Shown here one piece after another: positions 4,792-32,907 of a stretch of 36,849 nucleotides of DNA. This DNA comes from a virus (taxonomy: Duplodnaviria > Heunggongvirae > Uroviricota > Caudoviricetes), in the IMG/VR virus record IMGVR_UViG_3300028912_000018; one strand, 5' to 3'. A program made the position numbers and the translations under genes. Under the pieces are notes generated by a model that worked only from the letters and a program-made list of their open reading frames with translations, searched no databases and was not told the DNA's origin. Positions within the stretch are counted from its first letter, which is position 1. Each line of letters starts with the position of its first letter.

Positions 4792-4808
4792 ATTACCTTT
4801 CGGGTAAT
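4792..4808. promoter_or_regulatory. operator-like 17-bp palindrome ATTACC-TTTCG-GGTAAT
   Basis: perfect inverted repeat; member of a dispersed motif family. Confidence 0.55.
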
Positions 4809-4844
4809 TTGCAAAACGTGCTGGATAGCAAACAAATTATTTGT

Positions 4845-4864
4845 TACTGTATAAACATACAGTT
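4845..4864. promoter_or_regulatory. LexA (SOS) box TACTGTATAAACATACAGTT
   Basis: CTGT-N8-ACAG with AT-rich spacer; 20 nt upstream of the 4884 start codon. Confidence 0.7.
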
Positions 4865-4883
4865 ATTGCATGGAGAAGATAAG

Positions 4884-5141
4884 ATGCAGCAGTATCACTA
4901 TCCACTGGAAGACGGATTTACCGAAAGGATTCACACGCCGGGAGGCGTCAGGTCACTGGTGGAGGGATCGCACTTGATGAAATTACTCCGGGATCTCGAT
5001 AAGGATGGATTTAATGTCGATGGCCCACTTGCCGAACTGACTGCACTGATTAACTACGTCACCAGCTCACAGATGTCTATGCAGGATCTGCAAACACATC
5101 TCGACTATTGTGCCGAACAATTACGAAAACAAACCAGATAA
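4884..5141 (+). CDS. small antirepressor-like protein (stand-alone paralog of the Ant C-terminal domain)
   Basis: 85 aa; GGAG SD 8 nt upstream; roughly 40-45% identity by eye to the C-terminal 75 aa of the 5459-6115 product. Confidence 0.6.
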   Translation: MQQYHYPLEDGFTERIHTPGGVRSLVEGSHLMKLLRDLDKDGFNVDGPLAELTALINYVTSSQMSMQDLQTHLDYCAEQLRKQTR

Positions 5142-5144
5142 GGT

Positions 5145-5188
5145 TTGCAATTACCAAATGGAGTGCTTATATTTACCTTTGCGGTAAA
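5145..5188 (+). promoter_or_regulatory. sigma70-like promoter overlapping operator TTTACC-TTTGC-GGTAAA
   Basis: -35 TTGCAA (5145-5150), 17-nt spacer, -10 TATATT (5168-5173); operator 5172-5188. Confidence 0.5.
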
Positions 5189-5300
5189 TTTACATCGCAC
5201 TCCTCTTGTGCCATAGTAATCGGGCACTGGCAAAATCCAGTGCCGGGATTGGTCTCCCGGATTACTAAGTGGCGCATACCACGCCAGACGTGGTTTTTTT
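5189..5300 (+). ncRNA. candidate small structured RNA or attenuated leader upstream of ant
   Basis: no credible ORF; 8-bp stem hairpin (5223-5244), second hairpin with loop TTGGTC, intrinsic terminator CCACG-loop-CGTGG plus T7 at 5279-5300. Confidence 0.3.
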
Positions 5301-5458
5301 ATGCGTATAGCACAGTCATGCCAGAATTATGGTGGGCTGAATGGGGGTCCGAAAGGACGCCGGTACCACTTAGGCCGGTAAGACCAACTCCGTTCAGTTC
5401 ACCACCATCTGATTGGTCTCAGCGGTGGTGATGTAATTCGCTAAGTGGAGACGCCATC

Positions 5459-6115
5459 ATGAACGCTCAACTCATCCCCGTATTCAACGGCACTATATCT
5501 AACGAAACAGCCCTACTTTGTAATGCCCGCGATCTGCACGCTTTTTTAGGTGTTAAAAAGGTGTTTGCAGCATGGATTACAAATCGCATATCAGAATACG
5601 AATTCATTGAAAATCAAGACTATATTTTGCTTTCCAATTTGGGAAAGCAAACATCTGGTAGAGGCGGCCACAACCGCAAAGAGTACCACCTCACCCTTGA
5701 TACAGCCAAAGAGCTGGCGATGGTCGAGCGTAACGAAAAAGGTCGCCAGGTGCGACGCTACTTCATTGAATGCGAGAAACGTTTAAGACAACAAGAAACA
5801 AAAGTGGAGAAGGTCTTGTCAGGCTTCATGCCCGCCATTATGGAGGCGATCAAGCTGGAAGACAAAAAAGAATACAGCGCCCCACTGAAGCCCGGCTACC
5901 GTAGCCTGATTCATTCGCCGTCTGGTGTTCTCGGCCTGACGGAGAACTCACTGCTGATGAATCTGCTGAACAAGTTACAGGAAGACGGGCACGATGTATC
6001 GGGCGCGGCAGCGGAGCTGACCACCATGTTCTGCTACATCGTCGGTGTGAGCAAATGCCTGCGTGATATCCAGACGCACGCGGAGTACATCAACGACAAG
6101 GCAGGGTTCTTCTGA
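5459..6115 (+). CDS. ant: antirepressor (AntA-type N-terminal domain plus C-terminal domain)
   Basis: 218 aa; N-terminal [35 protein letters not shown] resembles the AntA antirepressor domain; GGAG SD. Confidence 0.7.
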
Positions 6116-6157
6116 CGGCGGCGGCACAGGGACGTGCCTTTAAATAATTCTGTACAG

Positions 6158-6202
6158 ATTGCAGACTGTGGGTGAATAGCGTACTATTACCTTAAAGGTA
6201 AA
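6158..6202 (+). promoter_or_regulatory. promoter with overlapping operator ATTACC-TTAAA-GGTAAA
   Basis: -35 TTGCAG, 17-nt spacer, -10 TACTAT; operator 6186-6202 abuts the AGGAGG SD. Confidence 0.45.
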
Positions 6203-6213
6203 GGAGGCGCGAT

Positions 6214-6381
6214 ATGACAGCGTTGAAAAATCGTACTCAGCACAATGAACAAGCCAAGCAATGCTGGGATGTCATTGGAAAAGTTATGCTTGGCCGCGCA
6301 AGCAAAGAGCGCGACAAGGATATGGTTTACCAGACAGGAACATCTTTCAGCGACTTCAAGGCGGCATTTCGCTCCAAATAG
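6214..6381 (+). CDS. small hypothetical protein (55 aa)
   Basis: ATG with AGGAGG SD; below the ORF-track size cutoff; translated by hand. Confidence 0.4.
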   Translation: MTALKNRTQHNEQAKQCWDVIGKVMLGRASKERDKDMVYQTGTSFSDFKAAFRSK

Positions 6382-6401
6382 AAGCACATCAGGAGTTTTC
6401 C

Positions 6402-6842
6402 TTGAAGTTTAACATTAGAATATCTAATAGTTTTCTACATGGGGAAAGCAACACCCCTTTCGCTGTAGACGGACCTTTCCTTACTGATGATGAAATAAAA
6501 ATCATACAAAGTTTTTTAGAGGATGTTGCCAATGGAAGGGCGCTTGTTGGAAAAAACAAGCCCTCGTGGGTTGATGATAACCATGATAAAATTCCCGGCT
6601 CAGACAATTATGAGCAAGAGAATTATTGGCATTATCATTGTGGGCCAACATGGTATCCAAACACATTTAAGAATTATACCATTAACTTAAATTTCAACCC
6701 TGGCGGAAGGCATTCTAATGAATGCATTCATTATGCAAAAAATGATAATGAAATTGTCATTGTTGGATTTTCAAGAGAACACATACCTTTCCTTTCATCA
6801 GATGGAAACAACAATCCGCTTTTTAATGATGAAGAAGAATAG
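6402..6842 (+). CDS. hypothetical protein, AT-rich moron gene (TTG start assumed)
   Basis: no in-frame ATG after the upstream stop; TTG 6 nt after AGGAG; AT-rich codons; terminator follows. Confidence 0.45.
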   Translation: MKFNIRISNSFLHGESNTPFAVDGPFLTDDEIKIIQSFLEDVANGRALVGKNKPSWVDDNHDKIPGSDNYEQENYWHYHCGPTWYPNTFKNYTINLNFNPGGRHSNECIHYAKNDNEIVIVGFSREHIPFLSSDGNNNPLFNDEEE

Positions 6843-6862
6843 CCCGCGCTGCGGGCTTTTTT
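6842..6862 (+). terminator. intrinsic terminator
   Basis: GCCCGC-GCT-GCGGGC then TTTTTT. Confidence 0.7.
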
Positions 6863-6934
6863 GTGGACGAAACAAAAGTCAGTGCTACACTCATTGACGC
6901 CACATTGAGGTGGCTTATAGATGGAAATTTCACA

Positions 6935-7096
6935 ATGAAAAAAGCATTTGCTGCACTGTTCGTTTTGTTGTCTCTGGTAGCGTCAACTCAGGCCTTTGCC
7001 GGTCGTTGTCAGCACGACAGCGACACTGCTGCTGACGGCTCACGCTGCGGTGGGCGTTCTGCGGATTCCCGCCCGGGCGGCGGTGGCATTCGTTAA
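6935..7096 (+). CDS. small secreted peptide (53 aa precursor)
   Basis: signal peptide MKKAFAALFVLLSLVASTQAFA with AXA site; about 31-aa Gly/Ser/Arg-rich mature part with 2 Cys. Confidence 0.4.
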   Translation: MKKAFAALFVLLSLVASTQAFAGRCQHDSDTAADGSRCGGRSADSRPGGGGIR

Positions 7097-7119
7097 AAAC
7101 AAGGCCGCGAAAGCGGCCT
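7095..7119 (-). terminator. intrinsic terminator ending the minus-strand virion operon
   Basis: AGGCCGC-TTTC-GCGGCCT hairpin followed on the minus strand by TGTTTTT. Confidence 0.6.
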
Positions 7120-7131
7120 GTGACATGTCAC
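7120..7131. repeat. 12-bp perfect palindrome GTGACATGTCAC (copy 1 of 3)
   Basis: exact match to copies at 24829 and 27280. Confidence 0.9.
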
Positions 7132-7132
7132 G

Positions 7133-7693
7133 CTACATTGATATATGATTCATAAAGTAGCTTAAAGATTTACTTCCCAGAAAAGAAATTTCTTTTCCTG
7201 GATATGTCGCAATAATTGAGCATGACTTATCCCCGTTAGAGGTAACAAATCCTGAATAACCTACTTGTTCTTTACCATTTTGTTGCTTGGCTAAAAAGTA
7301 GAGGTAGCTTATCTTTTTGCCCTCTGGGTAAAACTCTGCCAAACCAGTATCGGTGATTGAATATTTTATTCTCCCGCCTTGAGTAACGTTTTCCATCTCA
7401 AGTTTAGCTATGTCTTTTCTGTTGTATTCAGCATTGATTTTCCTTTCGAAATCAATGTTGTTTTCAAATGAGTAGGAAGCAACAGTCTGAATAGATGGGA
7501 ACACGTTTATCTGGATGCCCCCACAGTCGGCACAGGTATAAAGGTATGAATCAGATGGAATCCCCATAAAAGAAAACTGAGTTACCTTAAATTTATCGCT
7601 ATCTCCAAAGTATTGAAGTTCGCATTTAACATTTTGCCCTGCAAAAGAAAATGCAGACATCAATATTGAAACAAAAAATATAATTGCCTTCAT
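7133..7693 (-). CDS. secreted/periplasmic hypothetical protein, last gene of the virion operon
   Basis: 186 aa; signal peptide MKAIIFFVSILMSAFSFA; start 2 nt after upstream stop; AT-rich. Confidence 0.55.
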   Translation of the reverse strand: MKAIIFFVSILMSAFSFAGQNVKCELQYFGDSDKFKVTQFSFMGIPSDSYLYTCADCGGIQINVFPSIQTVASYSFENNIDFERKINAEYNRKDIAKLEMENVTQGGRIKYSITDTGLAEFYPEGKKISYLYFLAKQQNGKEQVGYSGFVTSNGDKSCSIIATYPGKEISFLGSKSLSYFMNHISM

Positions 7694-7695
7694 TA

Positions 7696-10245
7696 TTATT
7701 TACCTAGCATGAACTGCGATGGTGGGATCAGAAAGTCGTTCCCCTGCTCACGCTCAACACGGCGCTGATAACGCTCAAGAGAGCCTGGGTCAAGGGCATC
7801 TTGTATCCGGTTCAATATTAAACCATTCATCGCCGTACGAAGCCAGAACACGTTGAGGAATGGCGTATTGTCAAGTGCCGTGCGATACCAGTCACCCAAA
7901 TCAGCATCCCCTCTCGTGGTCTGCTGGAGCAGCGTGATAATGCTGTCAGCGTTCGATGCTGCTGGCCCCATTAGCGACGTAACCGGCCCGGCCCCCATGC
8001 GGTTGACCTCACCAAACATGAAGTCACCCAAGATGCCAAGACCGCCCCCCTGAGATGCGGCTGCGAGAAACGTCTTGGCATCTGCCGGGCGTGGTGTTTG
8101 CCCTTTCAGCATGAGTTTTGACTGCATGGAGATATAACCAAACATAGTCGCCCAGACAAAGAGGTTTGCAGCACCAAGGAAAGCCCCCTTCCCGTTACGT
8201 AGCAGCGCATTCGTCAGCGATCCGGTTTTCGACTCACCAAGCCCAGCAGGAATATAACCACGCCCGAATACTTCGCGTCCTAGTACGTTCTGCATGAAGC
8301 TTGCAGTGAACGATTTGTACTGACCAGCGAATCGTATTGCTTCCCCAGCCACCGTTCCTGGCACCGTGCCCATCTTCATAAACGCCTGCGTGCGATCGCC
8401 AGGCTCTGACATGGCGATATTCAGACGGTCAAGGATGTAGCCGCGCAACTGCCCTTCCAATTGATCGCGTGCGTCAGCGATAGCGCGCTGCGTTGGTTTG
8501 ATCCCCTTACTCTCTACATAACCGGCAATCACTTCGTCAGGCACGCCGCGGATGCCGCTGGTCGTCATGAACTTACGACCTTCGCTATCGGCCATGTCCA
8601 TGTTGCGAAAAATTTCCCACTCACGTTCGCCAATACCGTGCAGATCCAGCACGCGTCGCAGGTCTTCCGGTAGCCGCGCATGAGACTGGTCAGCATTCTT
8701 TGCAAGCCAGTTGGTTATCATCATGGCGTTGCTGTTGCGACCGCTCTCGGTCCAGAAGTTCATGAGGTTGTACTTAAAGAAAAGCTGCTGCGCGCGACCA
8801 AGCTTTCCATTCAGCGTGTCATCACCAGATATGCGCCGGATGATTTCCTGCGTCATGGAGTCGGAATAAACTCCGATAGAGGAAAGGATCTCTTTCTGCT
8901 CCGCGCTGTTGTAACGCGTGAAGCGGCCTCTCATAGCACCAAGCAACGCCTGCATAAAATTCTGCCCTTGGTAGCGCATCTCGGTAGCGGCGATAGGCAC
9001 GTCGTTAAACGATGAGATTACCGCGCCACCAAGTTGGCTCATACGCAACCAGCCGCGTACAGCCGCCGACGCATTGGCCCAGCCTACGCTGCCAGGAATA
9101 TTTAGCGAGCCGTCAACCTGCGGCATTACGGTACGGTTAATGCGACGCACCTTCGTCATGTAGTCAGCCAACGCTGCCGGTCTTCCGGATTTGCTGATAT
9201 CTTCAGCAATGGCGTCCGTCAGGTACTTAAACATGTTCTGTGGGTTAGTGCCCAGTACGCGCATCATGCCCGTTGTGCGGGCAGCGCTGTTTAAGCCACC
9301 AAACAGCGCTTCTCGCAGGCTGCCGGTGCCGAATTGCTGGTTGTACTCGTGCCACGAGATACCATCTTTGAAGTGCAAAATTCGCTCTTGGCTGGCGCGT
9401 TTAGCTGCGTTCGCCGATCCCTTAAAGCCATTCATCCAATCGGGCTTTTCAGATGTAAGATGCACGCCGGAAGCCAGCCCGTTATAAATGTTACGCATGA
9501 ACTGCTCGCGGTCAGCCACGCCGTCAAAAGTGCGCTCATCAAGGCGCGGGAGAATAGCATTTCGCCATGCTTCATAACCTGCGGCGCGGATCTTCATGAT
9601 GTCGTGTGACTGGCGCACTATATAGCCCGGCTCTTTGCGTATCCATGCCCCGGCGCGGTTCTCATCAATGCGCGCAGTTTCCTGCCATTTCATGATGATT
9701 TGTGCAGCGCTTACGGATTGCTTTGTCATACCGTCAGTTGACTGCCCGCGCCCTATGCGCCACATTGCATCGGCAATTTCCCGGTCATTGCTGCCGCTGG
9801 CGATGAATTGCACCAGCCCGGCACGGTCAAAATCGTAGTTGATACCGGAATGATACTTGCCGCGCAGTTGCGCCACCTCCGAAGATACCGACCGGCGGGC
9901 GCCGGTACGCGCATCGTTGCGGCCAACCAGCATTGCTTCAAGCCCGATATCCGGGCGGTCTTTCCAGATAGTACGAAGCTCTCTAAGTCGTTGTGCGGCA
10001 ATACGGGCGTCGATTGCCTTATTGCGAGCCTCAATCTGTTTTGCCAGCATATCGGCATTGCTCAGTTCTTCCGCTGCGCGCATCGCGGCCTCTTCCAGAG
10101 ACAGCGCCTCATTGGTCGCCAGAATTCGCCTAGTGGTGTCGTTCATGTCACGCACCAGCGACTCCATCTCATCGGAAGAAAGCTCGCGACCAGCGGCAGC
10201 ATTTACACTGCGCTCGCACTGCGTCAAAAATTCGTTTGCTGCCAT
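7696..10245 (-). CDS. large internal virion (core/ejection) protein
   Basis: 849 aa; ATGA start-stop overlap with upstream gene; position in operon. Confidence 0.65.
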   Translation of the reverse strand: MAANEFLTQCERSVNAAAGRELSSDEMESLVRDMNDTTRRILATNEALSLEEAAMRAAEELSNADMLAKQIEARNKAIDARIAAQRLRELRTIWKDRPDIGLEAMLVGRNDARTGARRSVSSEVAQLRGKYHSGINYDFDRAGLVQFIASGSNDREIADAMWRIGRGQSTDGMTKQSVSAAQIIMKWQETARIDENRAGAWIRKEPGYIVRQSHDIMKIRAAGYEAWRNAILPRLDERTFDGVADREQFMRNIYNGLASGVHLTSEKPDWMNGFKGSANAAKRASQERILHFKDGISWHEYNQQFGTGSLREALFGGLNSAARTTGMMRVLGTNPQNMFKYLTDAIAEDISKSGRPAALADYMTKVRRINRTVMPQVDGSLNIPGSVGWANASAAVRGWLRMSQLGGAVISSFNDVPIAATEMRYQGQNFMQALLGAMRGRFTRYNSAEQKEILSSIGVYSDSMTQEIIRRISGDDTLNGKLGRAQQLFFKYNLMNFWTESGRNSNAMMITNWLAKNADQSHARLPEDLRRVLDLHGIGEREWEIFRNMDMADSEGRKFMTTSGIRGVPDEVIAGYVESKGIKPTQRAIADARDQLEGQLRGYILDRLNIAMSEPGDRTQAFMKMGTVPGTVAGEAIRFAGQYKSFTASFMQNVLGREVFGRGYIPAGLGESKTGSLTNALLRNGKGAFLGAANLFVWATMFGYISMQSKLMLKGQTPRPADAKTFLAAASQGGGLGILGDFMFGEVNRMGAGPVTSLMGPAASNADSIITLLQQTTRGDADLGDWYRTALDNTPFLNVFWLRTAMNGLILNRIQDALDPGSLERYQRRVEREQGNDFLIPPSQFMLGK

Positions 10246-11942
10246 CACATCCCCCGGTTAATCATACAGGCGGCAAATGCCCGGAAAGCGTTGCTCATGC
10301 TATTGTCGCTGGCGTCGGCACGAATATCATTGAGTTTCTGGCGCAACGTGGTCGCAAGATCAGGGTTATCGACAGCGATATCGTCAAGCAGGGCGTTACT
10401 CAGGTTGAGCTCGTTATCAAGGTCTGCAGCGGCAGCGGTAATTTCATGATCTGCCTTTTGCGTTTCTTGATAAACCCGATCGGCTGTTTCGCTTGCTGGG
10501 CGAGCCGTTTCATCAACCTGCCGTGCCGGGTTCTGTATGCGATGGATGGCGCGTTCACGCAGTGCTGGTTTGTGCAGTTCATAGAAGGGCTCAACATCTG
10601 GGCTACGTCCTTCCATCATGTGTGCCAGCGCAGCGCGATACGCCTGCTGGTTCACGTTCCAGTCAGCATCCCTGATGGCGCTTGCGGCAGTGCGAACTGC
10701 GCCAGCGACCGGCGACATCTGCATGCCGTCCAGGATCTGCTGCGCACGCTCGGAAATGGTGACTTTCAGGTCGTCGGGGATCTCGCCGCGGGAAATCTGA
10801 GACTGGCGCCAGCGCGCCTGCTCTGCTGTCGCGTTCTGCTCCAGCGATGTGTTGATCTCCTGATTGCGTGCAGCGATGGCGTCTTTCTCGGCCTGAATCT
10901 CTTTCAGTGCCCTAGAGCGCGCATCCTTAAACTTCATCCGCTGCCCCTGATACTTTTTGGTGCGCTGCTGCAGCGTCGCATCAAGCGAGTCAGCATGACG
11001 TTGATTAGCCGCAAGCTCGGCACGCAGGTCGGCAACGTTACCGATCTGCCCGCTCTGTAACTCCTGCTGGCGCGCCATATAGTCAGGAACCACGTCGTCA
11101 TAAGCTCGGCTGTATGCGTAGCTCTCCGCTTCACTGGAAATGGCCGCCGCCAGATCTGCGTTAGCGCCAACCTCAGGGATATTCACGCCCGCCGGAATGT
11201 TGTCAGGCGTTATCACTGGGGTTGGCTGCGCATCGCCAGAAAACGCCGGGGACTCTCCCGTTGCAGCATCGGGAACGCGACGCGGTCGCACGATATCGGC
11301 GATAAGGCCGCCGCCGGCATGCATTAGACCGCCAGCCATCGTGTTAAAAAAAGTACTTTCCAACGCGTTGCTATAGGTGAAGTCGTCACCTTCCGCCGCC
11401 GCTGCCAGCCCGGTAAGCGGCACGGTCACCAACGCCTGCGCTGCCCCCATGCGTGCACCAGCAACAAATCGCTCGCCAAATCGGCCAAGCACAGAAGCCG
11501 CCTTTGCTTCTCCAGCGAACGGAACCAGCGCCAGCGCCACGTTACCAGGATCTGCCATTGAACCAGCTAGGCTGGCTGCGAAATTAAGCGGCGTGGCTAC
11601 CCACCCGCTCGGTGCCGACATCGCGATCTGCTGGCGTGCCAGAGAATCTTTGCGTTCGGCAATAACATGATCGAGAAAAGCCTGCGTAACGCCAGAATCT
11701 GGCACGTTTATGCTCTTTACGCCGTACTGCTTCAGGAGCTCATCCGCTTCCTGCTTACTGATAACTGTAGAGTTTGGGTCATTCGCCAGCGAGTCGGCCT
11801 GCGCAAAGCGGTAGCCGGACATGACCGGCCCCTCTTCAAATCCCTGCTTAAGGGAAGAAAGCAGCGATTCGCCAAGCCCTGCTGGCGCGTTGCCAATTGG
11901 CTGGTTAATTCCCTGTCCCGGATCATCTGTGTAAATTGGCAT
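10245..11942 (-). CDS. internal virion (core/ejection) protein
   Basis: 565 aa; coiled-coil-rich; tightly coupled to neighbours. Confidence 0.6.
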   Translation of the reverse strand: MPIYTDDPGQGINQPIGNAPAGLGESLLSSLKQGFEEGPVMSGYRFAQADSLANDPNSTVISKQEADELLKQYGVKSINVPDSGVTQAFLDHVIAERKDSLARQQIAMSAPSGWVATPLNFAASLAGSMADPGNVALALVPFAGEAKAASVLGRFGERFVAGARMGAAQALVTVPLTGLAAAAEGDDFTYSNALESTFFNTMAGGLMHAGGGLIADIVRPRRVPDAATGESPAFSGDAQPTPVITPDNIPAGVNIPEVGANADLAAAISSEAESYAYSRAYDDVVPDYMARQQELQSGQIGNVADLRAELAANQRHADSLDATLQQRTKKYQGQRMKFKDARSRALKEIQAEKDAIAARNQEINTSLEQNATAEQARWRQSQISRGEIPDDLKVTISERAQQILDGMQMSPVAGAVRTAASAIRDADWNVNQQAYRAALAHMMEGRSPDVEPFYELHKPALRERAIHRIQNPARQVDETARPASETADRVYQETQKADHEITAAAADLDNELNLSNALLDDIAVDNPDLATTLRQKLNDIRADASDNSMSNAFRAFAACMINRGM

Positions 11943-11943
11943 G

Positions 11944-14565
11944 TTATCGTCCTGATTGCTGGCCGTTCTGGAAAATGTTAATCAGGTTGTCGCGCTGACT
12001 TTCTGCGCTGTATTCCTTAGACTGTCCGGGAGTATATTTCACCGGAGTATCAATGAACTTGGTAATGCTGTTCCATACTGATCGGTTGGTTGTTCCCAGT
12101 TTCGCCAGATCGTTGAACGGCACCGTAATCGGGTTGCCGTCGGCACCGTTGACGATCAGCCCGTTGAGCATCAGGGTAAGTCCTGTTTCGTCGCTGTTGG
12201 TAACCCACTGCGCATTATCACGAATGCGGGAGATACTCTGCTCACGGTTGACCTCATCAGGTAGCCTTGGGTCACCAATAAGCGGCATAATCTGATCTGC
12301 TGACAGGTTTTTCAGATACGCATTGGCACCATCGTTAACGTCACGAATATCTATCCCTGCACGCTTAGGTAGCCGCCAAGTGCCATTGGTCTGGTACTGC
12401 TCGCCGAGGATGTCCTGATACGCCTGTTTTGCTGCATCAGACGCCGACATTCCGCGCTGCATGTTGATGTAAGTAAGTCGTTTTCCCTGCTCGTTGAAGT
12501 TATTCCACACGGCAGTGCCACCAGGCTGAACAACCATCGTGCCAGCAAAATCTTTCGATTGGTCATTCCATGACGAGTCGGCGCTATCCGCGTCGGTTTT
12601 CTCAAGACTGCCGCGTAAGTCAGCAGTTTTAACGCTACGGTTTTGCCAGAGCGCATTTGCCGCGCGCGGGTTCTCGGTAGCCATGACAACCTGCAACGCA
12701 GGATAAGCGCTCTTCTGAACCTGCTGCATCACCTGATCCGAGTATTTGCCGAACGACTGCGCCACCGACTGAATGGCCTTTACGCTAGATTCCTGCGTGT
12801 TGTCAATACGCTGCAGTACGTCGTTGACCATGGACTCCGGTAAAACTTTTTTGCTCATTATCCCCAGGCGGTCTTTTTCAGACTGTATGCGGGAAACTAG
12901 GTATTCACCAGATGAAGGGTCATTCAGGTACTGCTGGAATGCAGCCTGCACAACCGGAGAGTTTTGTTGCAGCCATGCCCCCGGATCCGCTTCCCGCGCC
13001 TTCAGTACCTGCCCAAGCTTGACCTTTGCCGATGCATAAAGCTCTGCTTTGTATTTAAAGTCAGGGTCGTTTTCCTGCGGTGCCATTGCCTGCACGGCGG
13101 CGGTACCCTGCTGGACGTTGCCCTGCATAATGGTCTGATAAACAGGTTGTAGCGTCATTGCCTGCTGGTATTGCTGGAAGGTTTTTTCCATCTGCAGGCG
13201 CTCGGCAGGCGCTGCCTGAAGCGGCATAACGGCGGCCCATTCGTGCGCTGAAATAGGCGTCACCTGCTTACCGGCCTCAATTTTGGATAGGTCGTCCTGC
13301 ATTCGACTCTGTAGCGCAACGCGACCGGCTGAAGCCTGCATGTCGTACATGCCAGCAACCTTGCTCATCATCTGCGACTTTTTGTCCGGACTCATGGCGT
13401 TCCAGAATGGCTGTGCGATGAGGTTTTCCATCGTCGCAGATCCAGGAATAGCTCCAGCACTGCCAGTTACTTTTGCCACATAATTGCGCGTCTCGTCGTA
13501 TGGGATAGCTGCGGCAAACTGGGCGTTACTGACTTCGCCTGTGCGCGGATCGCCAATCTGTTTAATCCAGCCGTCAACCTTTCCTGGGCCAGCGTTATAG
13601 GCAGCTACTGCCAGAACCGGGTTATTGTCGTATTTCTTCATCTGCGCGCCGAAATAAGCTTGCCCCAAGCGGGCATTATAGCGCGGGTCATTCAACCATT
13701 TATCTCGGTCCCACGGCACGCCAGCAAGGCGGGCAGCTTCGGGGCCAGTATCTTCCGTCACCTGCGCTACGCCAACAGCGCCTTTTGGCGACACCAGAGG
13801 TGTTCCGTCCTTTCCGTACTGATTTCCGCCACTCTCCTGCCAGATTATTGCAGAGAATAACTGCGCCTCACTCGGTGTATCGGTTACCTCAATCTTGCCG
13901 TTCGGACCCATCATCTGTTGATACATCGGCACATACCACGCCTCCGCCGCACCGTTCGCGGCATTCTCGCGCCACGAAACCCAGTTCTGTTCGATCTCTT
14001 CCTGACTCTGGCCGTGGGCTTCGCCGTAAGCGATGATGCTATGATATGCCTTCAATCCTGCCTGGTTTGCCATTGTCGGGTTACGGAACTGCATCGATAG
14101 GTTTTTTAGTGTCGCATCCTGCATATCCGCCTCATACTGGCGAACCTGTCCTATTTCGTACCTCCCGGCCTGCGTAGTGAACTGAATGCGCTGCTGCTGC
14201 GCCTGCTGCATGAAAGCATTACGAGCCTGTTCATCCGGCAGCGACATAGCCAGTTGTTCGACCTGAGCATCAAACTGCTGCGTATACTCATGGCCTTTTC
14301 CAATAGCATTTTTCCCTTTCAGGTTAAGCAATCCTGTTTCAGGATTATTCAGCAGATCGCTGCTTATCTGACTGAGGTTAAGAGATGCCTCCTGAGCCAG
14401 AGCGATATTGGCACGCTGTTTTGCCTGCCCCAAAACATCAATTGCCTCTGTCCCTGCCCGAACAAAAGCATCACCAATACCTGGCTGAGAAAACGTCTGC
14501 AAGCCTGCTGACTGAACTCCACGACTCTCAACCTGACGTCCGGATACTGTTGGTACGACTGGCAT
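11944..14565 (-). CDS. internal virion protein with lytic transglycosylase (SLT) domain
   Basis: SLT motifs IIWQESGGNQ and AYNAGPGKV; start moved to ATG 14565 (GGAGG SD, TAATG overlap with upstream stop). Confidence 0.75.
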   Translation of the reverse strand: MPVVPTVSGRQVESRGVQSAGLQTFSQPGIGDAFVRAGTEAIDVLGQAKQRANIALAQEASLNLSQISSDLLNNPETGLLNLKGKNAIGKGHEYTQQFDAQVEQLAMSLPDEQARNAFMQQAQQQRIQFTTQAGRYEIGQVRQYEADMQDATLKNLSMQFRNPTMANQAGLKAYHSIIAYGEAHGQSQEEIEQNWVSWRENAANGAAEAWYVPMYQQMMGPNGKIEVTDTPSEAQLFSAIIWQESGGNQYGKDGTPLVSPKGAVGVAQVTEDTGPEAARLAGVPWDRDKWLNDPRYNARLGQAYFGAQMKKYDNNPVLAVAAYNAGPGKVDGWIKQIGDPRTGEVSNAQFAAAIPYDETRNYVAKVTGSAGAIPGSATMENLIAQPFWNAMSPDKKSQMMSKVAGMYDMQASAGRVALQSRMQDDLSKIEAGKQVTPISAHEWAAVMPLQAAPAERLQMEKTFQQYQQAMTLQPVYQTIMQGNVQQGTAAVQAMAPQENDPDFKYKAELYASAKVKLGQVLKAREADPGAWLQQNSPVVQAAFQQYLNDPSSGEYLVSRIQSEKDRLGIMSKKVLPESMVNDVLQRIDNTQESSVKAIQSVAQSFGKYSDQVMQQVQKSAYPALQVVMATENPRAANALWQNRSVKTADLRGSLEKTDADSADSSWNDQSKDFAGTMVVQPGGTAVWNNFNEQGKRLTYINMQRGMSASDAAKQAYQDILGEQYQTNGTWRLPKRAGIDIRDVNDGANAYLKNLSADQIMPLIGDPRLPDEVNREQSISRIRDNAQWVTNSDETGLTLMLNGLIVNGADGNPITVPFNDLAKLGTTNRSVWNSITKFIDTPVKYTPGQSKEYSAESQRDNLINIFQNGQQSGR

Positions 14566-23524: not shown

Positions 23525-23538
23525 TTCAATGACTCCGG

Positions 23539-23745: not shown

Positions 23746-23813
23746 ATCAATGACTCCGTACGCAATTAAATTATTACCAATTTAACCACATATGATTTAT
23801 TTATCGTAGATAG

Positions 23814-23851
23814 TTGACATTTAACGCACAAATTATTACCTTTCAGGTAAC
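23814..23851 (+). promoter_or_regulatory. plus-strand promoter (-35 TTGACA) with operator ATTACC-TTTCA-GGTAAC
   Basis: perfect -35; weak -10 overlapping the operator 23835-23851. Confidence 0.4.
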
Positions 23852-24172: not shown

Positions 24173-24249
24173 GTGGCATTAGCTCAGTCGGACAGAGCAA
24201 CCGCCTTCTAAGCGGTTGGTCGCAGGTTCGAATCCTGCATGCCACGCCA
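24173..24249 (+). tRNA. tRNA-Arg (anticodon UCU), with encoded CCA
   Basis: cloverleaf by hand: acceptor GTGGCAT/ATGCCAC, D GCTC/GAGC, anticodon stem ACCGC/GCGGT, loop CTTCTAA, T arm GCAGG-TTCGAAT-CCTGC. Confidence 0.85.
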
Positions 24250-24824: not shown

Positions 24825-24828
24825 CACC

Positions 24829-24840: not shown

Positions 24841-24844
24841 AAAC

Positions 24845-24871: not shown

Positions 24872-24914
24872 ATCCTCACCAGAGGATATCTCCGTCATTA
24901 TCCCCGCTAACGGA

Positions 24915-26390: not shown

Positions 26391-26983
26391 TGATTACCAT
26401 CCTGACGTTCTTTGAGTCGCTTCCTGGCTGCTGCTATGCGATCAGCAATTGTCACATTCACATTAACATCCAGACGTTCTTTGAACGCGTTGACATCAAC
26501 ATGCTTACCAATCAGCTCAAGGTTCTTCACCTTGTCAGGCCATTTAATTTTTTTGAGGATTGTCTCTATCGAATCCTCGTTCATGTTCATGATGGTCGAT
26601 GACAGATCAAAGCCACTAAGCGTAGTGCGCCAGATTTTCGGCCACTCGCGGATTGGCTTAAGGCTCCCATCGTCGTTGAGGATGTCGATCACGTCCATCT
26701 GGTCGATCTCCACCAGGCGCATGAGAACGTAATCAGCACTGACGCGCATTCGTTTGTTGCGCTCCTCCATCAACTCGGCAATCCGTTTCTGAATGCGTTC
26801 ATCGCGCATCATGACACTGGCTTTAACTGCCGCTGTATTTGGGGAGAATCCTGCATTAATCGCTGCCTGAGTCTGGTTTTCAGGCGTTTTGATGTATGAC
26901 TGGCAATAAGCCTCCTGCATTGCTGTTAGTGGCTTAAATTGCGTTGATTTGCGTTTATAGGTTTTAGGTTCAGCAGGCATCAT
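26387..26983 (-). CDS. terminase small subunit
   Basis: start placed at ATG-ATG 26983/26980; the 26-aa extension to TTG 27061 is translated operator sequence. Confidence 0.65.
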   Translation of the reverse strand: MMPAEPKTYKRKSTQFKPLTAMQEAYCQSYIKTPENQTQAAINAGFSPNTAAVKASVMMRDERIQKRIAELMEERNKRMRVSADYVLMRLVEIDQMDVIDILNDDGSLKPIREWPKIWRTTLSGFDLSSTIMNMNEDSIETILKKIKWPDKVKNLELIGKHVDVNAFKERLDVNVNVTIADRIAAARKRLKERQDGNQ

Positions 26984-27020
26984 AACCACCGTGGTAATAG
27001 TTACCGTTGTGGTAATAGTA
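26982..27020 (-). promoter_or_regulatory. tandem operator-like sites plus -10 TACTAT before terS
   Basis: GTTACC-GTTGT-GGTAAT (27000-27016) and ATAACC-ACCGT-GGTAAT (26982-26998); minus-strand TACTAT at 27015-27020. Confidence 0.4.
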
Positions 27021-27057
27021 CCATGCAAAATAAAGCCGCCATAGTTGGCGGCAGTAT

Positions 27058-27270
27058 TCAAAGTCCATCAAATTCATCGTAAAAACTCTCGTCAAGATAC
27101 CCTTCCCATTTACCGCGAATGAAAATTACATCCTCGCCGCAAGGGTGCTGACTGTCGATAACTATATCCCTCCTGACGCAACCATACTTATGCATGAGAA
27201 ATTTAACCTCTTTCGGAAAATTTGCTGAGTTATCTCTCATATCTTCAAGGTCGTAGCGTATTTTTGGCAT
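27058..27270 (-). CDS. hypothetical protein (70 aa)
   Basis: start at internal ATG with GAAGGTG SD. Confidence 0.4.
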   Translation of the reverse strand: MPKIRYDLEDMRDNSANFPKEVKFLMHKYGCVRRDIVIDSQHPCGEDVIFIRGKWEGYLDESFYDEFDGL

Positions 27271-27279
27271 AACACCTTC

Positions 27280-27291
27280 GTGACATGTCAC
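27280..27291. repeat. 12-bp palindrome GTGACATGTCAC (copy 3 of 3)
   Basis: exact; preceded by ATAACACC. Confidence 0.9.
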
Positions 27292-27629
27292 ACTATTAAT
27301 TTCGTTTCATGCCAGCCTTTGGTCACCCAGCATTGCGAGTCACCATTACACGGGCATGAATTAACTGGAACTCTCTCGCCGCACTTACCGCAACGTTTTC
27401 TGCTGATCGATTTTATACGCCCGCGCACGCGTGCATCATCCTGGCGGATCAGTAACGCTATATACTCACCAAATTCGTAAGGTGCACGCCCGGGGCGACG
27501 CGTGGCACAGTTACGCTCCAGCATTTCAATTTCCTGAGCATCAAGCACAATTTCCAGCTTACGCACACCAGATGCAGCTTGTCTGGCTCTCTGAGCGGCT
27601 TTGCGCTCTGCTGCTGATTTAGCCATCAA
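27288..27629 (-). CDS. hypothetical protein with C-terminal Cys-rich zinc-ribbon-like motif
   Basis: 113 aa; basic N-terminus; CGKCGERVPVNSCPCNGDSQC. Confidence 0.45.
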   Translation of the reverse strand: MMAKSAAERKAAQRARQAASGVRKLEIVLDAQEIEMLERNCATRRPGRAPYEFGEYIALLIRQDDARVRGRIKSISRKRCGKCGERVPVNSCPCNGDSQCWVTKGWHETKLIV

Positions 27630-27900: not shown

Positions 27901-28088
27901 GACCTTCCTCCTTTGGCTTGTGAATTTGTATCGTCATGCCGCTTTGAGTGGTGACTACAATGACAGAACCAGGCTGAAGGCTATACTGACAATCCACTGT
28001 CCACTCCTGTAAGCCATATAAAACCAGATGAGCAAAACCTGAAGGAAGGCTATCCAGTCAATAATCGTATATTTCGCGAAGGAGACCA

Positions 28089-29359: not shown

Positions 29360-29420
29360 CTTTACCCTCGCTTATCCACATAACTTATTGATTACATTGA
29401 TAACTAAAAAGATCGTCGAT

Positions 29421-29765: not shown

Positions 29766-29767
29766 GA

Positions 29768-29846
29768 TTTACCTCTGAGGTAATTAAAAACCACATAAGA
29801 CACGAAATCAATAGATTTTAGAATATTTTATTACCCATTAGGTAAT
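29768..29846 (-). promoter_or_regulatory. two operator palindromes with a minus-strand promoter between P and the nin-like block
   Basis: TTTACC-TCTGA-GGTAAT (29768-29784, overlaps SD) and ATTACC-CATTA-GGTAAT (29830-29846). Confidence 0.45.
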
Positions 29847-29882
29847 CATTGAGACGTAAAAAAATGCGCTATCGCGCTGGTA

Positions 29883-31461: not shown

Positions 31462-31654
31462 AGGTTTCCCCTCTTGCACTCTTTAGTGCACAAGCAAATT
31501 CATTACGATGGCGGTTGGCGCTATTCATTGCACATTCAACACATGTTCCGTTCAGAACATACCTTTCAGAGAGATGGCCGTGACGGCACCGCTTTCCTGT
31601 GAAATAGCGATTTAACCCGGCTTTTGCGGCCTCCATTCTGGTTACTATCTTCAA
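31442..31654 (-). CDS. small Cys-containing protein in the cII position
   Basis: 70 aa; CRHGH...CVEC motif; start ambiguous. Confidence 0.35.
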   Translation of the reverse strand: MKIVTRMEAAKAGLNRYFTGKRCRHGHLSERYVLNGTCVECAMNSANRHRNEFACALKSARGETYGKQLD

Positions 31655-31731
31655 TTTTTCCGCCCCTTTTTGTTATTGATATTGGCTATTTTGCACAATT
31701 GGAAAATTTGATCAACCAGATTTGGTTTTTT

Positions 31732-31748
31732 ATTACCTTTGAGGTACG
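31732..31748. promoter_or_regulatory. operator-like site ATTACC-TTTGA-GGTACG (imperfect)
   Basis: between cro and the cII-position gene. Confidence 0.35.
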
Positions 31749-31802
31749 AATAGATATGAAAAGACCGCCGGATGGCGGTCTACAGAGGGTTGTGGCTGGA
31801 TA

Positions 31803-32033
31803 TCATGAGTAGAAGAAGTATGCCAGTTCTGCTTTTGAGCGCAGCCATTGTCTTGTTTTACAGGCTTTAAAAAGCCCATTCATCAATACCTTACCTGGCA
31901 TTTTGCGCTTACCTGTTAAGTGAGTCTGGATATAGTGACTCGTCGTTCCGGCTTCCTGTGCGAAGGCTTCACGCTCATCCGGAGTAAGTGCAAGCCAGTG
32001 CTTTTTGAAATCGAAATGTCCGTTATCGCTCAT
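31803..32033 (-). CDS. cro: Cro-like repressor
   Basis: 76 aa; divergent from repressor gene across the operator cluster. Confidence 0.6.
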   Translation of the reverse strand: MSDNGHFDFKKHWLALTPDEREAFAQEAGTTSHYIQTHLTGKRKMPGKVLMNGLFKACKTRQWLRSKAELAYFFYS

Positions 32034-32068
32034 AGCTATTGCCTGATATTTATTTCAGATAATAAATA

Positions 32069-32133
32069 TTCACCCATAAGGTAACAAAAATCAAGGATAG
32101 TTACCTATGGGGTGCATTTACCTGTTGGGTAAT
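32069..32133. promoter_or_regulatory. three-site OR-like operator cluster
   Basis: TTCACC-CATAA-GGTAAC (32069-32085), GTTACC-TATGG-GGTGCA (32100-32116), TTTACC-TGTTG-GGTAAT (32117-32133). Confidence 0.6.
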
Positions 32134-32187
32134 ATTGCTTTAAATTGAATCATCTACTGATTCATATATGAGGCGATTTTCCAGAAA

Positions 32188-32772
32188 ATGAAAAGTATCC
32201 AGGACGTCCGCAGGCAAAATCTCAACGACTTGATCGACCGTGAATTCAATGGTGTTCAGACGCGGATGGCAGAAAAACTTGGAACTCAGGCAAATCTGGT
32301 AAACCGCTGGGCTCTTGGCAAGAAGGTTATCGGCGACCAGGTTGCGCGAAAAATTGAAGCTGCCGCCAATAAACCACGTAACTGGCTTGATATCGATCGC
32401 TCGCTTTCTCAGGAAGGTTTTCAGCCTGTCGGCCCAAGCGACATTGGTCAGCTGGCGGCTCACAACCTGGAACGCTGGATGAGCGAAAGCCGCGACCTTT
32501 CAACACAGGGAAAACTTCACCGCGCATCCGGCGTCGCCCAGGTGACAATCAGCCGCCTGTTAAACAATGAGGTCAGCGTTTCCATTTCCACCCTGGAGAA
32601 TGTTGCATCCGCATTCGGGCGTCACGGATATGAACTACTGATTCACCCGCACGACCCTGCGACTATCAACTATGACCGCTCACGCTACGCATTGTTACCC
32701 GAAACCGAGAAAGCAAAGATCGAAAGTTACATTGAATTTGTCATCAACCAGAACGAAAAAAACAAACAATAA
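32188..32772 (+). CDS. prophage repressor with two HTH-like segments, no S24 peptidase domain
   Basis: 194 aa; HTH-like segments around RMAEKLGTQANLVNRW and ASGVAQVTISRLL; no GDSM/Ser-Lys autocleavage motif. Confidence 0.7.
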   Translation: MKSIQDVRRQNLNDLIDREFNGVQTRMAEKLGTQANLVNRWALGKKVIGDQVARKIEAAANKPRNWLDIDRSLSQEGFQPVGPSDIGQLAAHNLERWMSESRDLSTQGKLHRASGVAQVTISRLLNNEVSVSISTLENVASAFGRHGYELLIHPHDPATINYDRSRYALLPETEKAKIESYIEFVINQNEKNKQ

Positions 32773-32794
32773 AACTATAGTTTTCAGTAAGTAA

Positions 32795-32816
32795 GCCGCC
32801 TCATGGCGGCTTTTTT
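32795..32816 (+). terminator. intrinsic terminator after the repressor gene
   Basis: GCCGCC-TCAT-GGCGGC then TTTTTT. Confidence 0.7.
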
Positions 32817-32828
32817 ATTGCCAGATAG

Positions 32829-32907
32829 ATTACCTTACGGGTAATTTTTTTAACTCATATCTATTGACACCAAACCAAATAAGCATAATTATTACCTCAA
32901 CGGTAAC
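32829..32907 (+). promoter_or_regulatory. pL-like promoter (-35 TTGACA at 32864-32869) flanked by two operators
   Basis: ATTACC-TTACG-GGTAAT (32829-32845) and ATTACC-TCAAC-GGTAAC (32891-32907). Confidence 0.55.

What the first reader, a model, noticed from the sequence alone, without database searches (positions are those of the whole stretch)
4792..32907. Dispersed 17-bp palindromic operator (ATTACC-N5-GGTAAT) at 14 or more promoter-proximal sites
Seen directly at 4792, 5172, 6186, 23835, 26982, 27000, 29768, 29830, 31732, 32069, 32100, 32117, 32829 and 32891. Three sites lie between the divergent repressor and cro genes (two exactly abutting) and two flank a TTGACA promoter after the repressor terminator, a lambda OR/OL-like layout. 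The others sit at accessory-gene promoters (antirepressors, moron gene, tRNA cassette), at the nin-like block and immediately before terS, usually overlapping a -10 or the SD. This implies one repressor controls early, accessory and possibly packaging promoters, like the dispersed C1 operators of phage P1.
Basis: seen in the sequence. Interest (0 to 1): 0.7.

Follow-up and report, generated by a model that had tools for sequence, protein, structure and literature searches.

The report
Known repressor operators of an epsilon15-like phage
The repeated 17-bp palindrome is real and is almost certainly the binding site of this phage's lysogeny repressor. The same motif, at the same genome positions, is already annotated as repressor-binding sites in the related Salmonella phage epsilon15, so the finding is correct but not new.

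Summary
ATTACC-N5-GGTAAT occurs 3 times exactly (0.01 expected) and 14 times with up to 2 mismatches (0.95 expected). A weight matrix built only from other phages finds 14 sites of at least 10 bits (0.40 expected).

The window is a Uetakevirus, an epsilon15/phiV10-like podovirus. Its repressor is 100% identical to that of phiV10 and ZX5, and it is homologous to the crystallised tetrameric Rep of phage SPC32H (PDB 5D50).

The same palindrome is the top-ranking palindrome in six Uetakevirus genomes. It sits at the same syntenic positions in each: before terS, before the head operon, between ant and the tailspike gene, in an OR-like triple, and in two pairs 62 bp apart that bracket promoters. The epsilon15 RefSeq record already annotates seven of these sites as "protein_bind: repressor".

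The interpretation of one repressor with dispersed operators is therefore supported, but it is already known. The switch is not lambda-like in how it is induced. Rep has no autocleavage domain, and a LexA box precedes the small antirepressor gene.

Site 5172 controls a promoter for isrK-like and C4-like RNAs upstream of a second antirepressor. That is a real parallel with the immI region of phage P1.

The parts
4792..4808 (.). Operator ATTACCTTTCGGGTAAT (0 mismatches, 23.4 bits) in the divergent region between the tailspike gene (start 4688, -) and ant (4884, +)
   Evidence: Syntenic site in all 6 genomes. Annotated as a repressor site in epsilon15 at 19895-19911.
4845..4864 (+). LexA box TACTGTATAAACATACAGTT just upstream of ant
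   Evidence: 1 mismatch to TACTGT-N8-ACAGTA; the only good match in the window. The CTGTAT...ATACAG core is conserved in 6 genomes.
4884..5141 (+). Small antirepressor Ant (85 aa)
   Evidence: 81-85% identical to epsilon15 gp19 and to the gene annotated ant in SPC32H. PHROG 450.
5172..5188 (.). Operator TTTACCTTTGCGGTAAA (18.9 bits). It overlaps the -10 (TATATT, 5169-5174) of a TTGCAA-17-TATATT promoter.
   Evidence: Syntenic sites in phiV10, Tyrion and BUCT711.
5224..5300 (+). isrK-like Hfq-binding sRNA with a terminator, downstream of the operator-controlled promoter
   Evidence: Rfam RF01394, 67.7 bits against a gathering score of 50.
5325..5409 (+). C4-type antisense RNA
   Evidence: Rfam RF01695, 61.2 bits against a gathering score of 45.
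5459..6115 (+). AntA-type antirepressor whose C-terminal part resembles the small Ant
   Evidence: Pfam AntA, E 4e-26. PHROG 377 'anti-repressor Ant', and residues 135-216 match PHROG 450.
6186..6202 (.). Operator ATTACCTTAAAGGTAAA (24.7 bits). It is fused to a TTGCAG-17-TACTAT promoter and abuts the Shine-Dalgarno sequence of an accessory operon (6214/6261-7096).
   Evidence: The downstream genes are PHROG 5954 (unknown function) and a PHROG 14503 moron membrane protein. This module is absent from epsilon15.
23835..23851 (.). Operator ATTACCTTTCAGGTAAC (21.0 bits). It overlaps the -10 of a conserved TTGACA promoter (+ strand, towards tRNA-Arg at 24173) and lies 90 bp upstream of the gp3/portal head operon (- strand).
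   Evidence: Annotated as a repressor site in epsilon15 at 2931-2947.
26982..26998 (.). Operator ending 1 nt before the terS start codon (26980, - strand). Its GGTGG doubles as the Shine-Dalgarno sequence.
   Evidence: 12.0 bits.
27000..27016 (.). Operator 18 bp (centre to centre) from the previous one. It is fused to TGgTACTAT (extended -10-like) just downstream of the terminator at 27035-27052.
   Evidence: 19.5 bits. Annotated as a repressor site in epsilon15 at 12-27.
29768..29784 (.). Promoter-proximal operator of a 62-bp pair. It overlaps the -10 (TTTAAT) and ends 2 nt before the DUF1064 gene start (29765, -).
   Evidence: 21.0 bits.
29830..29846 (.). Distal operator of the 62-bp pair, upstream of the -35 (TTGATT)
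   Evidence: 23.5 bits. Annotated as a repressor site in epsilon15 at 35906-35922.
31732..31748 (.). Operator between the cro-like gene's terminator (31762-31781) and the gp40/replication operon, just upstream of a conserved TTGATC -35
   Evidence: 11.5 bits.
31803..32033 (-). Cro-like small HTH regulator, divergent from rep
   Evidence: PHROG 35 'transcriptional repressor', E 5.6e-13. Homologue of epsilon15 gp39.
32069..32085 (.). OR-like site 3 (TTCACCCATAAGGTAAC, 14.3 bits) inside the core of the promoter for the cro-like gene
   Evidence: (TTGTTA-17-TATTAT on the - strand).
32100..32116 (.). OR-like site 2. It is degenerate (GTTACCTATGGGGTGCA, 5.9 bits) and supported mainly by positional homology.
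   Evidence: The equivalent epsilon15 and SPC32H sites have 1 and 0 mismatches.
32117..32133 (.). OR-like site 1 (TTTACCTGTTGGGTAAT, 20.4 bits). It abuts site 2 and lies next to or over the -35 of the rep promoter.
32188..32772 (+). Repressor Rep (194 aa): an N-terminal DNA-binding domain, a middle HTH_3 domain and a C-terminal tetramerisation region
   Evidence: PDB 5D50 (SPC32H Repressor), E 4e-42. 100% identical to the phiV10 and ZX5 Rep. Pfam finds HTH_3 and no peptidase S24. NLVNRW is invariant across four lineages.
32829..32845 (.). Distal operator of the PL-like 62-bp pair, after the rep terminator (32793-32812)
   Evidence: 23.4 bits.
32891..32907 (.). Proximal operator overlapping the -10 and +1 of the TTGACA-17-AATTAT promoter (32864-32892) that drives the recombination and excision operon
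   Evidence: 19.6 bits.

Best explanation
The 17-bp palindrome ATTACC-N5-GGTAAT is the operator of the prophage's lysogeny repressor Rep (32188-32772). The window is an epsilon15/phiV10-type podovirus (genus Uetakevirus). In the lysogen, Rep occupies operators at essentially every promoter region of the phage. These are the divergent rep/cro-like region (three sites), the leftward early promoter, the replication and 'nin-like' operons, the region immediately before terS, the head-operon/tRNA divergent region, the tailspike/ant divergent region, the isrK-C4-antA antirepressor module, and an accessory (moron) operon. Most promoter-proximal sites overlap the -10 or +1, so repression there is by occlusion of RNA polymerase. 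By homology to SPC32H Rep, the repressor is a tetramer with two DNA-binding units. This fits the fact that operators come in pairs, either abutting (17-18 bp apart) or exactly 62 bp apart with one upstream of the -35 and one over the -10. A bound tetramer would clamp or loop the promoter. Induction is not by repressor autocleavage. DNA damage removes LexA from the box in front of ant, and Ant then takes the Rep tetramer apart, so all operators are freed together. What is shown here: the sites, their enrichment, their positions relative to promoter-like hexamers, their conservation, and the homologies of Rep and Ant. What is inferred: physical binding of Rep to each site, looping, and occlusion.
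For: Enrichment: 14 sites against 0.95 expected, and 14 sites of at least 10 bits against 0.40 expected using a matrix trained on other phages. All sites lie in the 7.5% of the window that is intergenic. An unbiased scan of 5-mer palindromes makes TTACC-N5-GGTAA the top palindrome in all six Uetakevirus genomes tested, with 8-11 exact copies each. The sites occupy the same syntenic positions in genomes only 72-80% identical in DNA, and they form conserved islands within diverged intergenic sequence. Seven of these sites are annotated 'protein_bind, repressor, lysogeny' in the epsilon15 RefSeq record, and all seven are exact ATTACC-N5-GGTAAT. Rep matches the SPC32H Repressor, PDB 5D50, at E 4e-42, and its N-terminal DNA-binding domain is strongly conserved, with NLVNRW invariant. 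SPC32H Rep is described as binding palindromic sites as a tetramer that the Ant tetramer breaks up (PMC9638917). Its C-terminal domain has been proposed to be a DNA-looping tetramerisation domain (PMC9986798). A Rep 100% identical to this one abolished free-phage production when overexpressed and cut holin and endolysin transcripts by more than 99.9% in phage ZX5 (PMC9782041). Eleven of 12 operator pairs in six genomes are exactly 62 bp apart and one is 63 bp. Promoter overlaps were read directly from the sequence. The LexA box precedes ant, and Ant is 81-85% identical to the epsilon15 and SPC32H proteins.
Against: No binding data for this Rep on these particular sites could be consulted. The primary papers (Kropinski 2007; Kim & Ryu 2013; Kim et al. 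2016) are not in the held library, so I could not check which operators were tested experimentally. The epsilon15 features may be predictions only. The covariation test between repressor specificity and motif could not be done, because all four Rep lineages (42-100% identity) use the same motif. Several sites lie upstream of a -35 (4792, 29830, 31732, 32829), where simple occlusion would not work, so they need cooperativity or looping, which is inferred. No consensus sigma-70 promoter was found in front of terS, so what the terS pair represses is uncertain. Site 32100 is a poor match.
Confidence: 0.9

Rival explanations
1. The motif is shared with, or mainly used by, the small Cro-like protein (31803-32033). 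On this reading it is a lytic-phase regulator's regulon that turns down early and accessory promoters during lytic growth, rather than the lysogenic repressor's regulon.
For: The cro-like gene is divergent from rep across the three-site region and belongs to a PHROG of transcriptional repressors. In lambdoid and N15-type phages, Cro and the repressor share operators (established knowledge).
Against: This does not exclude Rep, since sharing operators is the norm. The epsilon15 annotation assigns the sites to the repressor. Overexpression of an identical Rep shuts off lysis-gene transcription. The tetramer with two DNA-binding units matches the paired-site architecture.
Confidence: 0.3
2. The motif is the binding site of a late-gene activator, for example the PHROG 536 'transcriptional regulator' at 27288-27629, which is the homologue of epsilon15 gp49. 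It would mark activator-dependent late promoters.
For: Sites precede terS, the head operon and the tailspike gene, and in relatives the lysis cassette. Those regions lack good -35 hexamers. A regulator gene lies just upstream of terS.
Against: The best sites overlap the -10 or +1 of strong sigma-70-like early and accessory promoters (32891, 5172, 6186, 29768), which is a repressing position. Three sites also sit in the rep/cro-like switch region. A separate conserved element, CATATRTGGTT-N5-GGTAATA, lies closer to the head and tailspike genes and is a better candidate for a late-promoter signal.
Confidence: 0.05
3. The sites are not regulatory. They would be module-boundary recombination sequences, sites for a host factor, or chance or compositional repeats.
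For: The sites lie at junctions between mosaic modules, for example on either side of the accessory region 4.7-6.2 kb that differs between relatives.
Against: Chance is excluded by the shuffles. The spacing to promoter hexamers and start codons is precise, and the spacing between paired sites is fixed at 17, 18 or 62 bp across genera. The palindromic half-sites are conserved while the central N5 varies, which is typical of a site for a dimeric HTH protein. The same motif occurs in phages of four host genera, which argues against a factor specific to one host.
Confidence: 0.02

Closest known systems
Repressor-binding sites of Salmonella phage epsilon15 (RefSeq NC_004775 'protein_bind: repressor' features) and the Rep/Ant switch of Salmonella phage SPC32H (PDB 5D50 and 5D4Z)
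   Same: The 17-bp motif is identical. The syntenic positions are the same: before terS, before gp3, between ant and the tailspike gene, a PL-like pair, an OR-like triple, and a pair before the DUF1064/RuvC gene. Rep is homologous (42% identity, E 4e-42 to 5D50) and Ant is homologous (81-85%). A LexA box precedes ant.
   Different: This genome carries the phiV10-type Rep allele, which is 100% identical to the phiV10 and ZX5 Rep. It has two operator-controlled modules that epsilon15 lacks: isrK/C4/antA at 5172 and the accessory operon at 6186. Its middle OR site is degenerate, and its PL-like region has two sites where epsilon15 has three.
Phage lambda OR/OL with CI and Cro
   Same: Three operators lie between the divergent repressor and cro-like genes. 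Operators overlap the leftward early promoter after the repressor gene. The sites are 17-bp palindromes, and cooperative binding to paired sites is likely.
   Different: Rep has no S24 autocleavage domain and is expected to be inactivated by an antirepressor. It is a tetramer whose DNA-binding pairs come from different dimers (PMC9638917). Operators are also spread over late, packaging and accessory regions, which lambda does not have.
Phage P1 C1 repressor with dispersed operators, and the immI module (c4 antisense RNA, icd, ant)
   Same: One primary repressor acts on many operators scattered around the genome. This includes an operator at the promoter of a C4-type antisense RNA plus antirepressor module (Rfam C4 hit at 5325-5409 downstream of operator 5172). 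That P1's immI operon is under C1 control comes from my own knowledge.
   Different: There is no homology. Rep matches HTH_3-type families only. P1 operators are asymmetric 17-mers bound by monomeric C1 (my own knowledge), whereas these sites are symmetric and arranged in pairs. P1 late genes are controlled indirectly through Lpa, whereas here operators sit directly in front of the structural and packaging genes.
CB repressors of the linear plasmid-prophages N15, phiKO2 and PY54
   Same: A primary immunity repressor has palindromic operators at several separate loci, including an antirepressor locus (my own knowledge, not checked here).
   Different: The phage type and repressor family are unrelated, and this was not tested here.

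Membership tests
Uetakevirus (epsilon15-like) Rep-operator regulon | Repressor homologous to epsilon15 gp38 / SPC32H Rep (N-terminal DNA-binding domain, middle HTH domain, C-terminal tetramerisation domain) | tested here: met
   PDB 5D50, E 4e-42 over residues 1-190. 42-100% identity to Rep of genus members. Pfam HTH_3 at residues 106-147.
Uetakevirus (epsilon15-like) Rep-operator regulon | Operator motif ATTACC-N5-GGTAAT, as annotated for the repressor in epsilon15 | tested here: met
   All seven annotated epsilon15 features are exact matches. A matrix trained on relatives finds 14 window sites against 0.40 expected.
Uetakevirus (epsilon15-like) Rep-operator regulon | Operators at the same syntenic intergenic positions and with the same pair spacings | tested here: met
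   Alignments of seven regions across 5-6 genomes. The 62-bp pairs and the 17- and 18-bp abutting pairs are conserved.
Uetakevirus (epsilon15-like) Rep-operator regulon | LexA-controlled small antirepressor Ant instead of repressor autocleavage | tested here: met
   Ant homologue, 81-85% identical. LexA box at 4845-4864. No peptidase S24 domain in Rep. That LexA controls ant is known for SPC32H only, from my memory of Kim & Ryu 2013, which I could not read.
Uetakevirus (epsilon15-like) Rep-operator regulon | Physical binding of Rep to the motif | not testable with these tools
   This needs EMSA, footprinting or ChIP. The primary SPC32H and epsilon15 papers are not held.
Lambda CI-type repressor switch | Repressor with a C-terminal S24 (LexA-like) autocleavage domain | tested here: not met
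   Pfam finds only HTH families in Rep.
Lambda CI-type repressor switch | Tripartite operator between divergent repressor and cro genes, plus a second operator set at the leftward early promoter | tested here: met
   Sites 32069, 32100 and 32117, and sites 32829 and 32891.
P1 C1 dispersed-operator system | Repressor homologous to P1 C1 | tested here: not met
   Rep matches HTH_3, HTH_26 and YdaS-type models and PDB 5D50 only.
P1 C1 dispersed-operator system | Asymmetric 17-bp operators | tested here: not met
   The sites here are two-fold symmetric.
P1 C1 dispersed-operator system | Many operators dispersed over the genome, one of them controlling a c4-RNA/antirepressor module | tested here: met
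   There are 14 sites in 9 regions. Operator 5172 lies upstream of the Rfam isrK and C4 hits and of antA.

The most novel reading that the evidence does not exclude
Two points go beyond the existing annotation and are not excluded by my evidence. (1) The invariant 62-bp spacing has one operator upstream of the -35 and one over the -10, in 11 of 12 pairs across four host genera. This suggests that a single Rep tetramer closes a fixed micro-loop around each early promoter, and the 17- and 18-bp abutting pairs and half-operators at late promoters would be variants of the same clamp. (2) Operator specificity is frozen across Rep lineages that have diverged to 42% identity. A regulon of 14 or more dispersed sites may prevent immunity specificity from evolving, so any heteroimmunity in this genus would have to arise in the Ant or C4-antA modules, as it does between P1 and P7.
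Probability: 0.3. Interest if true: 0.45.

Novelty: already known. Interest (0 to 1): 0.2.

Why it matters
For annotation, it shows that phiV10-type prophages of E. coli carry the same repressor regulon that is marked in the epsilon15 record. This lets the operators, the promoters they overlap and the true terS start be annotated in many unannotated relatives. For biology, it gives a compact example of a 'flat' lysogeny circuit, in which one antirepressor-sensitive tetrameric repressor sits directly on early, late, packaging, antirepressor and moron promoters. It does not open a new question, because the system's parts are already described.

Tried and rejected
1. I tried to read the primary papers: Kropinski 2007 (PMID 17825342, PMC2698709), Kim & Ryu 2013 (PMC3807360) and Kim et al. 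2016 (PMC4983836). None is held. What I say about them rests on memory, on citing papers and on the GenBank features.

2. I planned a covariation test, looking for Rep lineages with a different DNA-binding domain and a different motif. It was not possible, because the phiV10-type, Tyrion-type, Klebsiella-type and epsilon15-type Reps (42-100% identity) all go with the same palindrome.

3. Literature searches for the motif string and for 'Uetakevirus operator' found nothing relevant beyond the ZX5 paper, which does not define operators.

4. I tested whether the conserved ATRTGGTT element next to several operators is enriched on its own. It is not (4 matches against 2.2 expected), so I only note it.

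5. The extra motif matches at 9125, 14567 and 3156 are rejected as probable chance hits. They lie inside genes, score low and fall within the expected background.

6. A LexA-box scan found only the one convincing site, before ant. The near-match at 6164 has 3 mismatches and is not counted.

Full report
**Observation**

The pattern ATTACC-N5-GGTAAT occurs 3 times exactly, against 0.01 expected. With up to 2 mismatches it occurs 14 times, against 0.95 expected and never more than 3 in 100 dinucleotide-preserving shuffles.

- Site 32069 has 3 mismatches.
- Site 32100 has 4 mismatches and keeps only one half-site.

I built a weight matrix only from sites in other phages (epsilon15, SPC32H, Tyrion, BUCT711). 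It finds 14 window sites of at least 10 bits, against 0.40 expected and at most 3 in 200 shuffles. With my gene calls, all 14 sites lie wholly in intergenic DNA, which is only 7.5% of the window. The matches at 9125, 14567 and 3156 are inside genes, score low and are consistent with the chance background.

**What the window is**

The immunity and replication region is 97-99% identical to Escherichia phages phiV10, TL-2011b, ZX5 and phiv142-3. These belong to the genus Uetakevirus, the epsilon15-like temperate podoviruses. The window runs in the opposite orientation to the phiV10 record. It is a mosaic, because the tailspike gene and the 6.1-14.1 kb stretch differ from phiV10. The 194-aa protein encoded at 32188-32772 is 100% identical to the phiV10, ZX5 and PAS61 repressor. 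It is 75-78% identical to that of the Enterobacter phages, 45% to the Klebsiella phages and 42% to epsilon15 and SPC32H. It matches the crystal-structure sequence of the SPC32H 'Repressor' (PDB 5D50) at E 4e-42 over its whole length.

**The motif is already annotated**

The epsilon15 RefSeq record carries seven 'protein_bind, repressor, lysogeny' features. Their positions are:

- before terS;
- before gp3;
- between gp19 and the tail fibre gene;
- three downstream of the repressor gene;
- before the RuvC-like gene.

All seven are exact ATTACC-N5-GGTAAT. An unbiased scan of all 5-mer inverted repeats with gaps of 0-9 makes TTACC-N5-GGTAA by far the commonest palindrome in the window, phiV10, epsilon15, SPC32H, Tyrion and Klebsiella phage BUCT711, with 8-11 exact copies each. 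Alignments of seven intergenic regions show that the sites are positionally conserved islands in otherwise diverged sequence. Relatives have two more conserved positions, upstream of the lysis cassette and upstream of int. Both fall outside this window.

**Anatomy in the window**

1. *Switch region.* Sites 32117 and 32100 abut exactly, and 32069 lies 31 bp further on, between rep (+) and a 76-aa Cro-like HTH gene (31803-32033, -; PHROG 35). Site 32069 lies inside a TTGTTA-17-TATTAT promoter for the cro-like gene. Site 32117 lies next to or over the probable -35 of the rep promoter.

2. *PL-like promoter.* After the rep terminator (32793-32812), site 32829 lies upstream of the -35 and site 32891 lies over the -10 and +1 of TTGACA-17-AATTAT.

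3. *A second pair of the same design.* Sites 29830 and 29768 bracket TTGATT-17-TTTAAT in front of the DUF1064 gene. The proximal operator ends 2 nt before the start codon, and its GAGGT serves as the Shine-Dalgarno sequence.
   - Both pairs are exactly 62 bp apart centre to centre.
   - So are 11 of the 12 such pairs in the six genomes; the other is 63 bp.

4. *Site 31732.* It follows the cro-like gene's terminator and precedes a conserved TTGATC -35 of the replication operon.

5. *terS pair.* Sites 27000 and 26982 are 18 bp apart. They lie between the terminator at 27035-27052 and the terS start codon. An extended -10-like TGgTACTAT is fused to the first operator, and the second operator ends 1 nt before the ATG.

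6. *Site 23835.* It overlaps the -10 of a conserved TTGACA promoter that points towards tRNA-Arg(TCT) at 24173. It also lies 90 bp upstream of the gp3/portal operon.

7. *Site 4792.* It lies between the tailspike gene and ant.

8. *Site 5172.* It overlaps the -10 of TTGCAA-17-TATATT.

9. *Site 6186.* It is fused to TTGCAG-17-TACTAT and abuts the Shine-Dalgarno sequence of an accessory operon that includes a moron-class membrane protein.

**How it most likely works**

Rep has an N-terminal DNA-binding domain in which NLVNRW and many other residues are invariant across all four lineages. It also has a middle HTH_3 domain and no S24 peptidase domain.

Papers I could read report the following:

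- SPC32H Rep binds palindromic sites as a tetramer. Its DNA-binding pairs come from different dimers, and the tetrameric antirepressor Ant breaks it into dimers (PMC9638917).
- The C-terminal domain of Rep is proposed to be a p53-like 'TetDloop' DNA-looping domain, with the two pairs of middle domains about 100 Å apart (PMC9986798).

A tetramer with two DNA-binding units explains why the operators come in pairs, either abutting or 62 bp apart (about six helical turns). I infer that the 62-bp pairs enclose the promoter in a small loop.

The window encodes an Ant that is 81-85% identical to epsilon15 gp19 and SPC32H Ant. Its gene is preceded by a near-consensus LexA box at 4845-4864. From my memory of Kim & Ryu 2013, LexA represses ant in SPC32H, and Rep is not cleaved during the SOS response. 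Overexpressing a Rep identical to this one in phage ZX5 abolished free phage and reduced holin and endolysin mRNA by more than 99.9% (PMC9782041).

The inferred induction circuit runs in these steps:

1. DNA damage leads to loss of LexA from the box before ant.
2. Ant is made.
3. Ant dismantles the Rep tetramer.
4. All operators are released together.

The observation and the main interpretation are right, including the reading of a repressor site directly before terS, which the epsilon15 record also marks. The lambda comparison holds for layout but not for the repressor type or the induction mechanism.

Rfam finds an isrK-like sRNA (5224-5300, 67.7 bits) and a C4-type antisense RNA (5325-5409, 61.2 bits) between operator 5172 and an AntA-type antirepressor gene (5459-6115). 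The primary repressor therefore appears to control a c4-RNA/antirepressor module, as C1 does at P1 immI (the P1 part is from my own knowledge).

**Rival explanations**

- The Cro-like protein probably shares the operators. This is compatible with the main explanation.
- A late-activator site is unlikely, because the best sites lie over the -10 or +1 of strong early and accessory promoters and within the switch region.
- Non-regulatory repeats are excluded by the statistics and by the precise spacing.

**Novelty**

The motif, its assignment to the repressor and its dispersed positions are in a public annotation of the type phage. The repressor family has a crystal structure and a described antirepressor mechanism. 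The finding is therefore already known, and this window is simply another genus member carrying it.

Two points go beyond the annotation and would need experiments:

- the strictly conserved 62-bp promoter-bracketing geometry;
- the conservation of operator specificity across Rep lineages that are only 42% identical.

**Limits**

No binding data for these exact sites could be consulted, and the primary papers were not available. Looping, occlusion and the function of the terS pair are inferences.

Noticed in passing
window 5224-5300 (+) and 5325-5409 (+): Rfam hits above gathering score to the isrK Hfq-binding sRNA (67.7 bits) and the C4 antisense RNA (61.2 bits). They lie in tandem between the small ant gene and the AntA-type antirepressor gene, downstream of the operator-controlled promoter at 5146-5174. 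The arrangement resembles a P1 immI / Gifsy isrK-anrP module.
   Followed up: partly
window 5459-6115 (+): The AntA-domain protein (Pfam AntA, E 4e-26) has a C-terminal part (residues 135-216) that matches PHROG 450, the same family as the 85-aa Ant. The phage may therefore carry two antirepressors with a related Rep-binding module.
   Followed up: partly
window 23773-23795 (-) and 4742-4762 (-): A conserved element CATATRTGGTT-N5-GGTAATA lies just upstream of the head operon (gp3) and the tailspike gene in all six genomes. Its right half equals an operator half-site. Its centre lies 62 bp (gp3) and 50 bp (tailspike) from the full operator. It may be a late promoter or activator site, or a half-operator partner. 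The short core ATRTGGTT is not enriched on its own.
   Followed up: partly
window 26978-27061 (-); L001 (phiV10) 41-122: The phiV10 record starts terS at position 41, which would put both operators and a terminator hairpin inside the ORF. The alignment with epsilon15, SPC32H and Tyrion supports the conserved ATGCC start 1 nt after the second operator, at window 26980.
   Followed up: partly
window 4845-4864 (+): A near-consensus LexA box (TACTGTATAAACATACAGTT) lies about 20 nt upstream of the ant start codon and is conserved in all six genomes. It is the only convincing LexA box in the window.
   Followed up: yes
window 1-4700 and 6125-14147: The window is a mosaic relative to phiV10. The 1040-aa tailspike (1566-4688), the genes at 1-1412 and the 6.1-14.1 kb block (accessory genes plus large virion proteins) have no close phiV10 match. 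The 4.6-7.1 kb accessory region is 99% identical to phage phiv142-3.
   Followed up: partly
window 24173-24249 (+): A tRNA-Arg (anticodon TCT) lies on the strand opposite the structural genes, at the same position as in SPC32H and the O157 typing phages. No tRNA is annotated at that position in the epsilon15 record.
   Followed up: no
L001-L005 (relatives), outside the window: Two further conserved operator positions exist in relatives: upstream of the lysis cassette (for example epsilon15 24703, phiV10 24691) and upstream of int (ATTACCYTAAAGGTATA, for example epsilon15 26881). These regions are not contained in this window.
   Followed up: no
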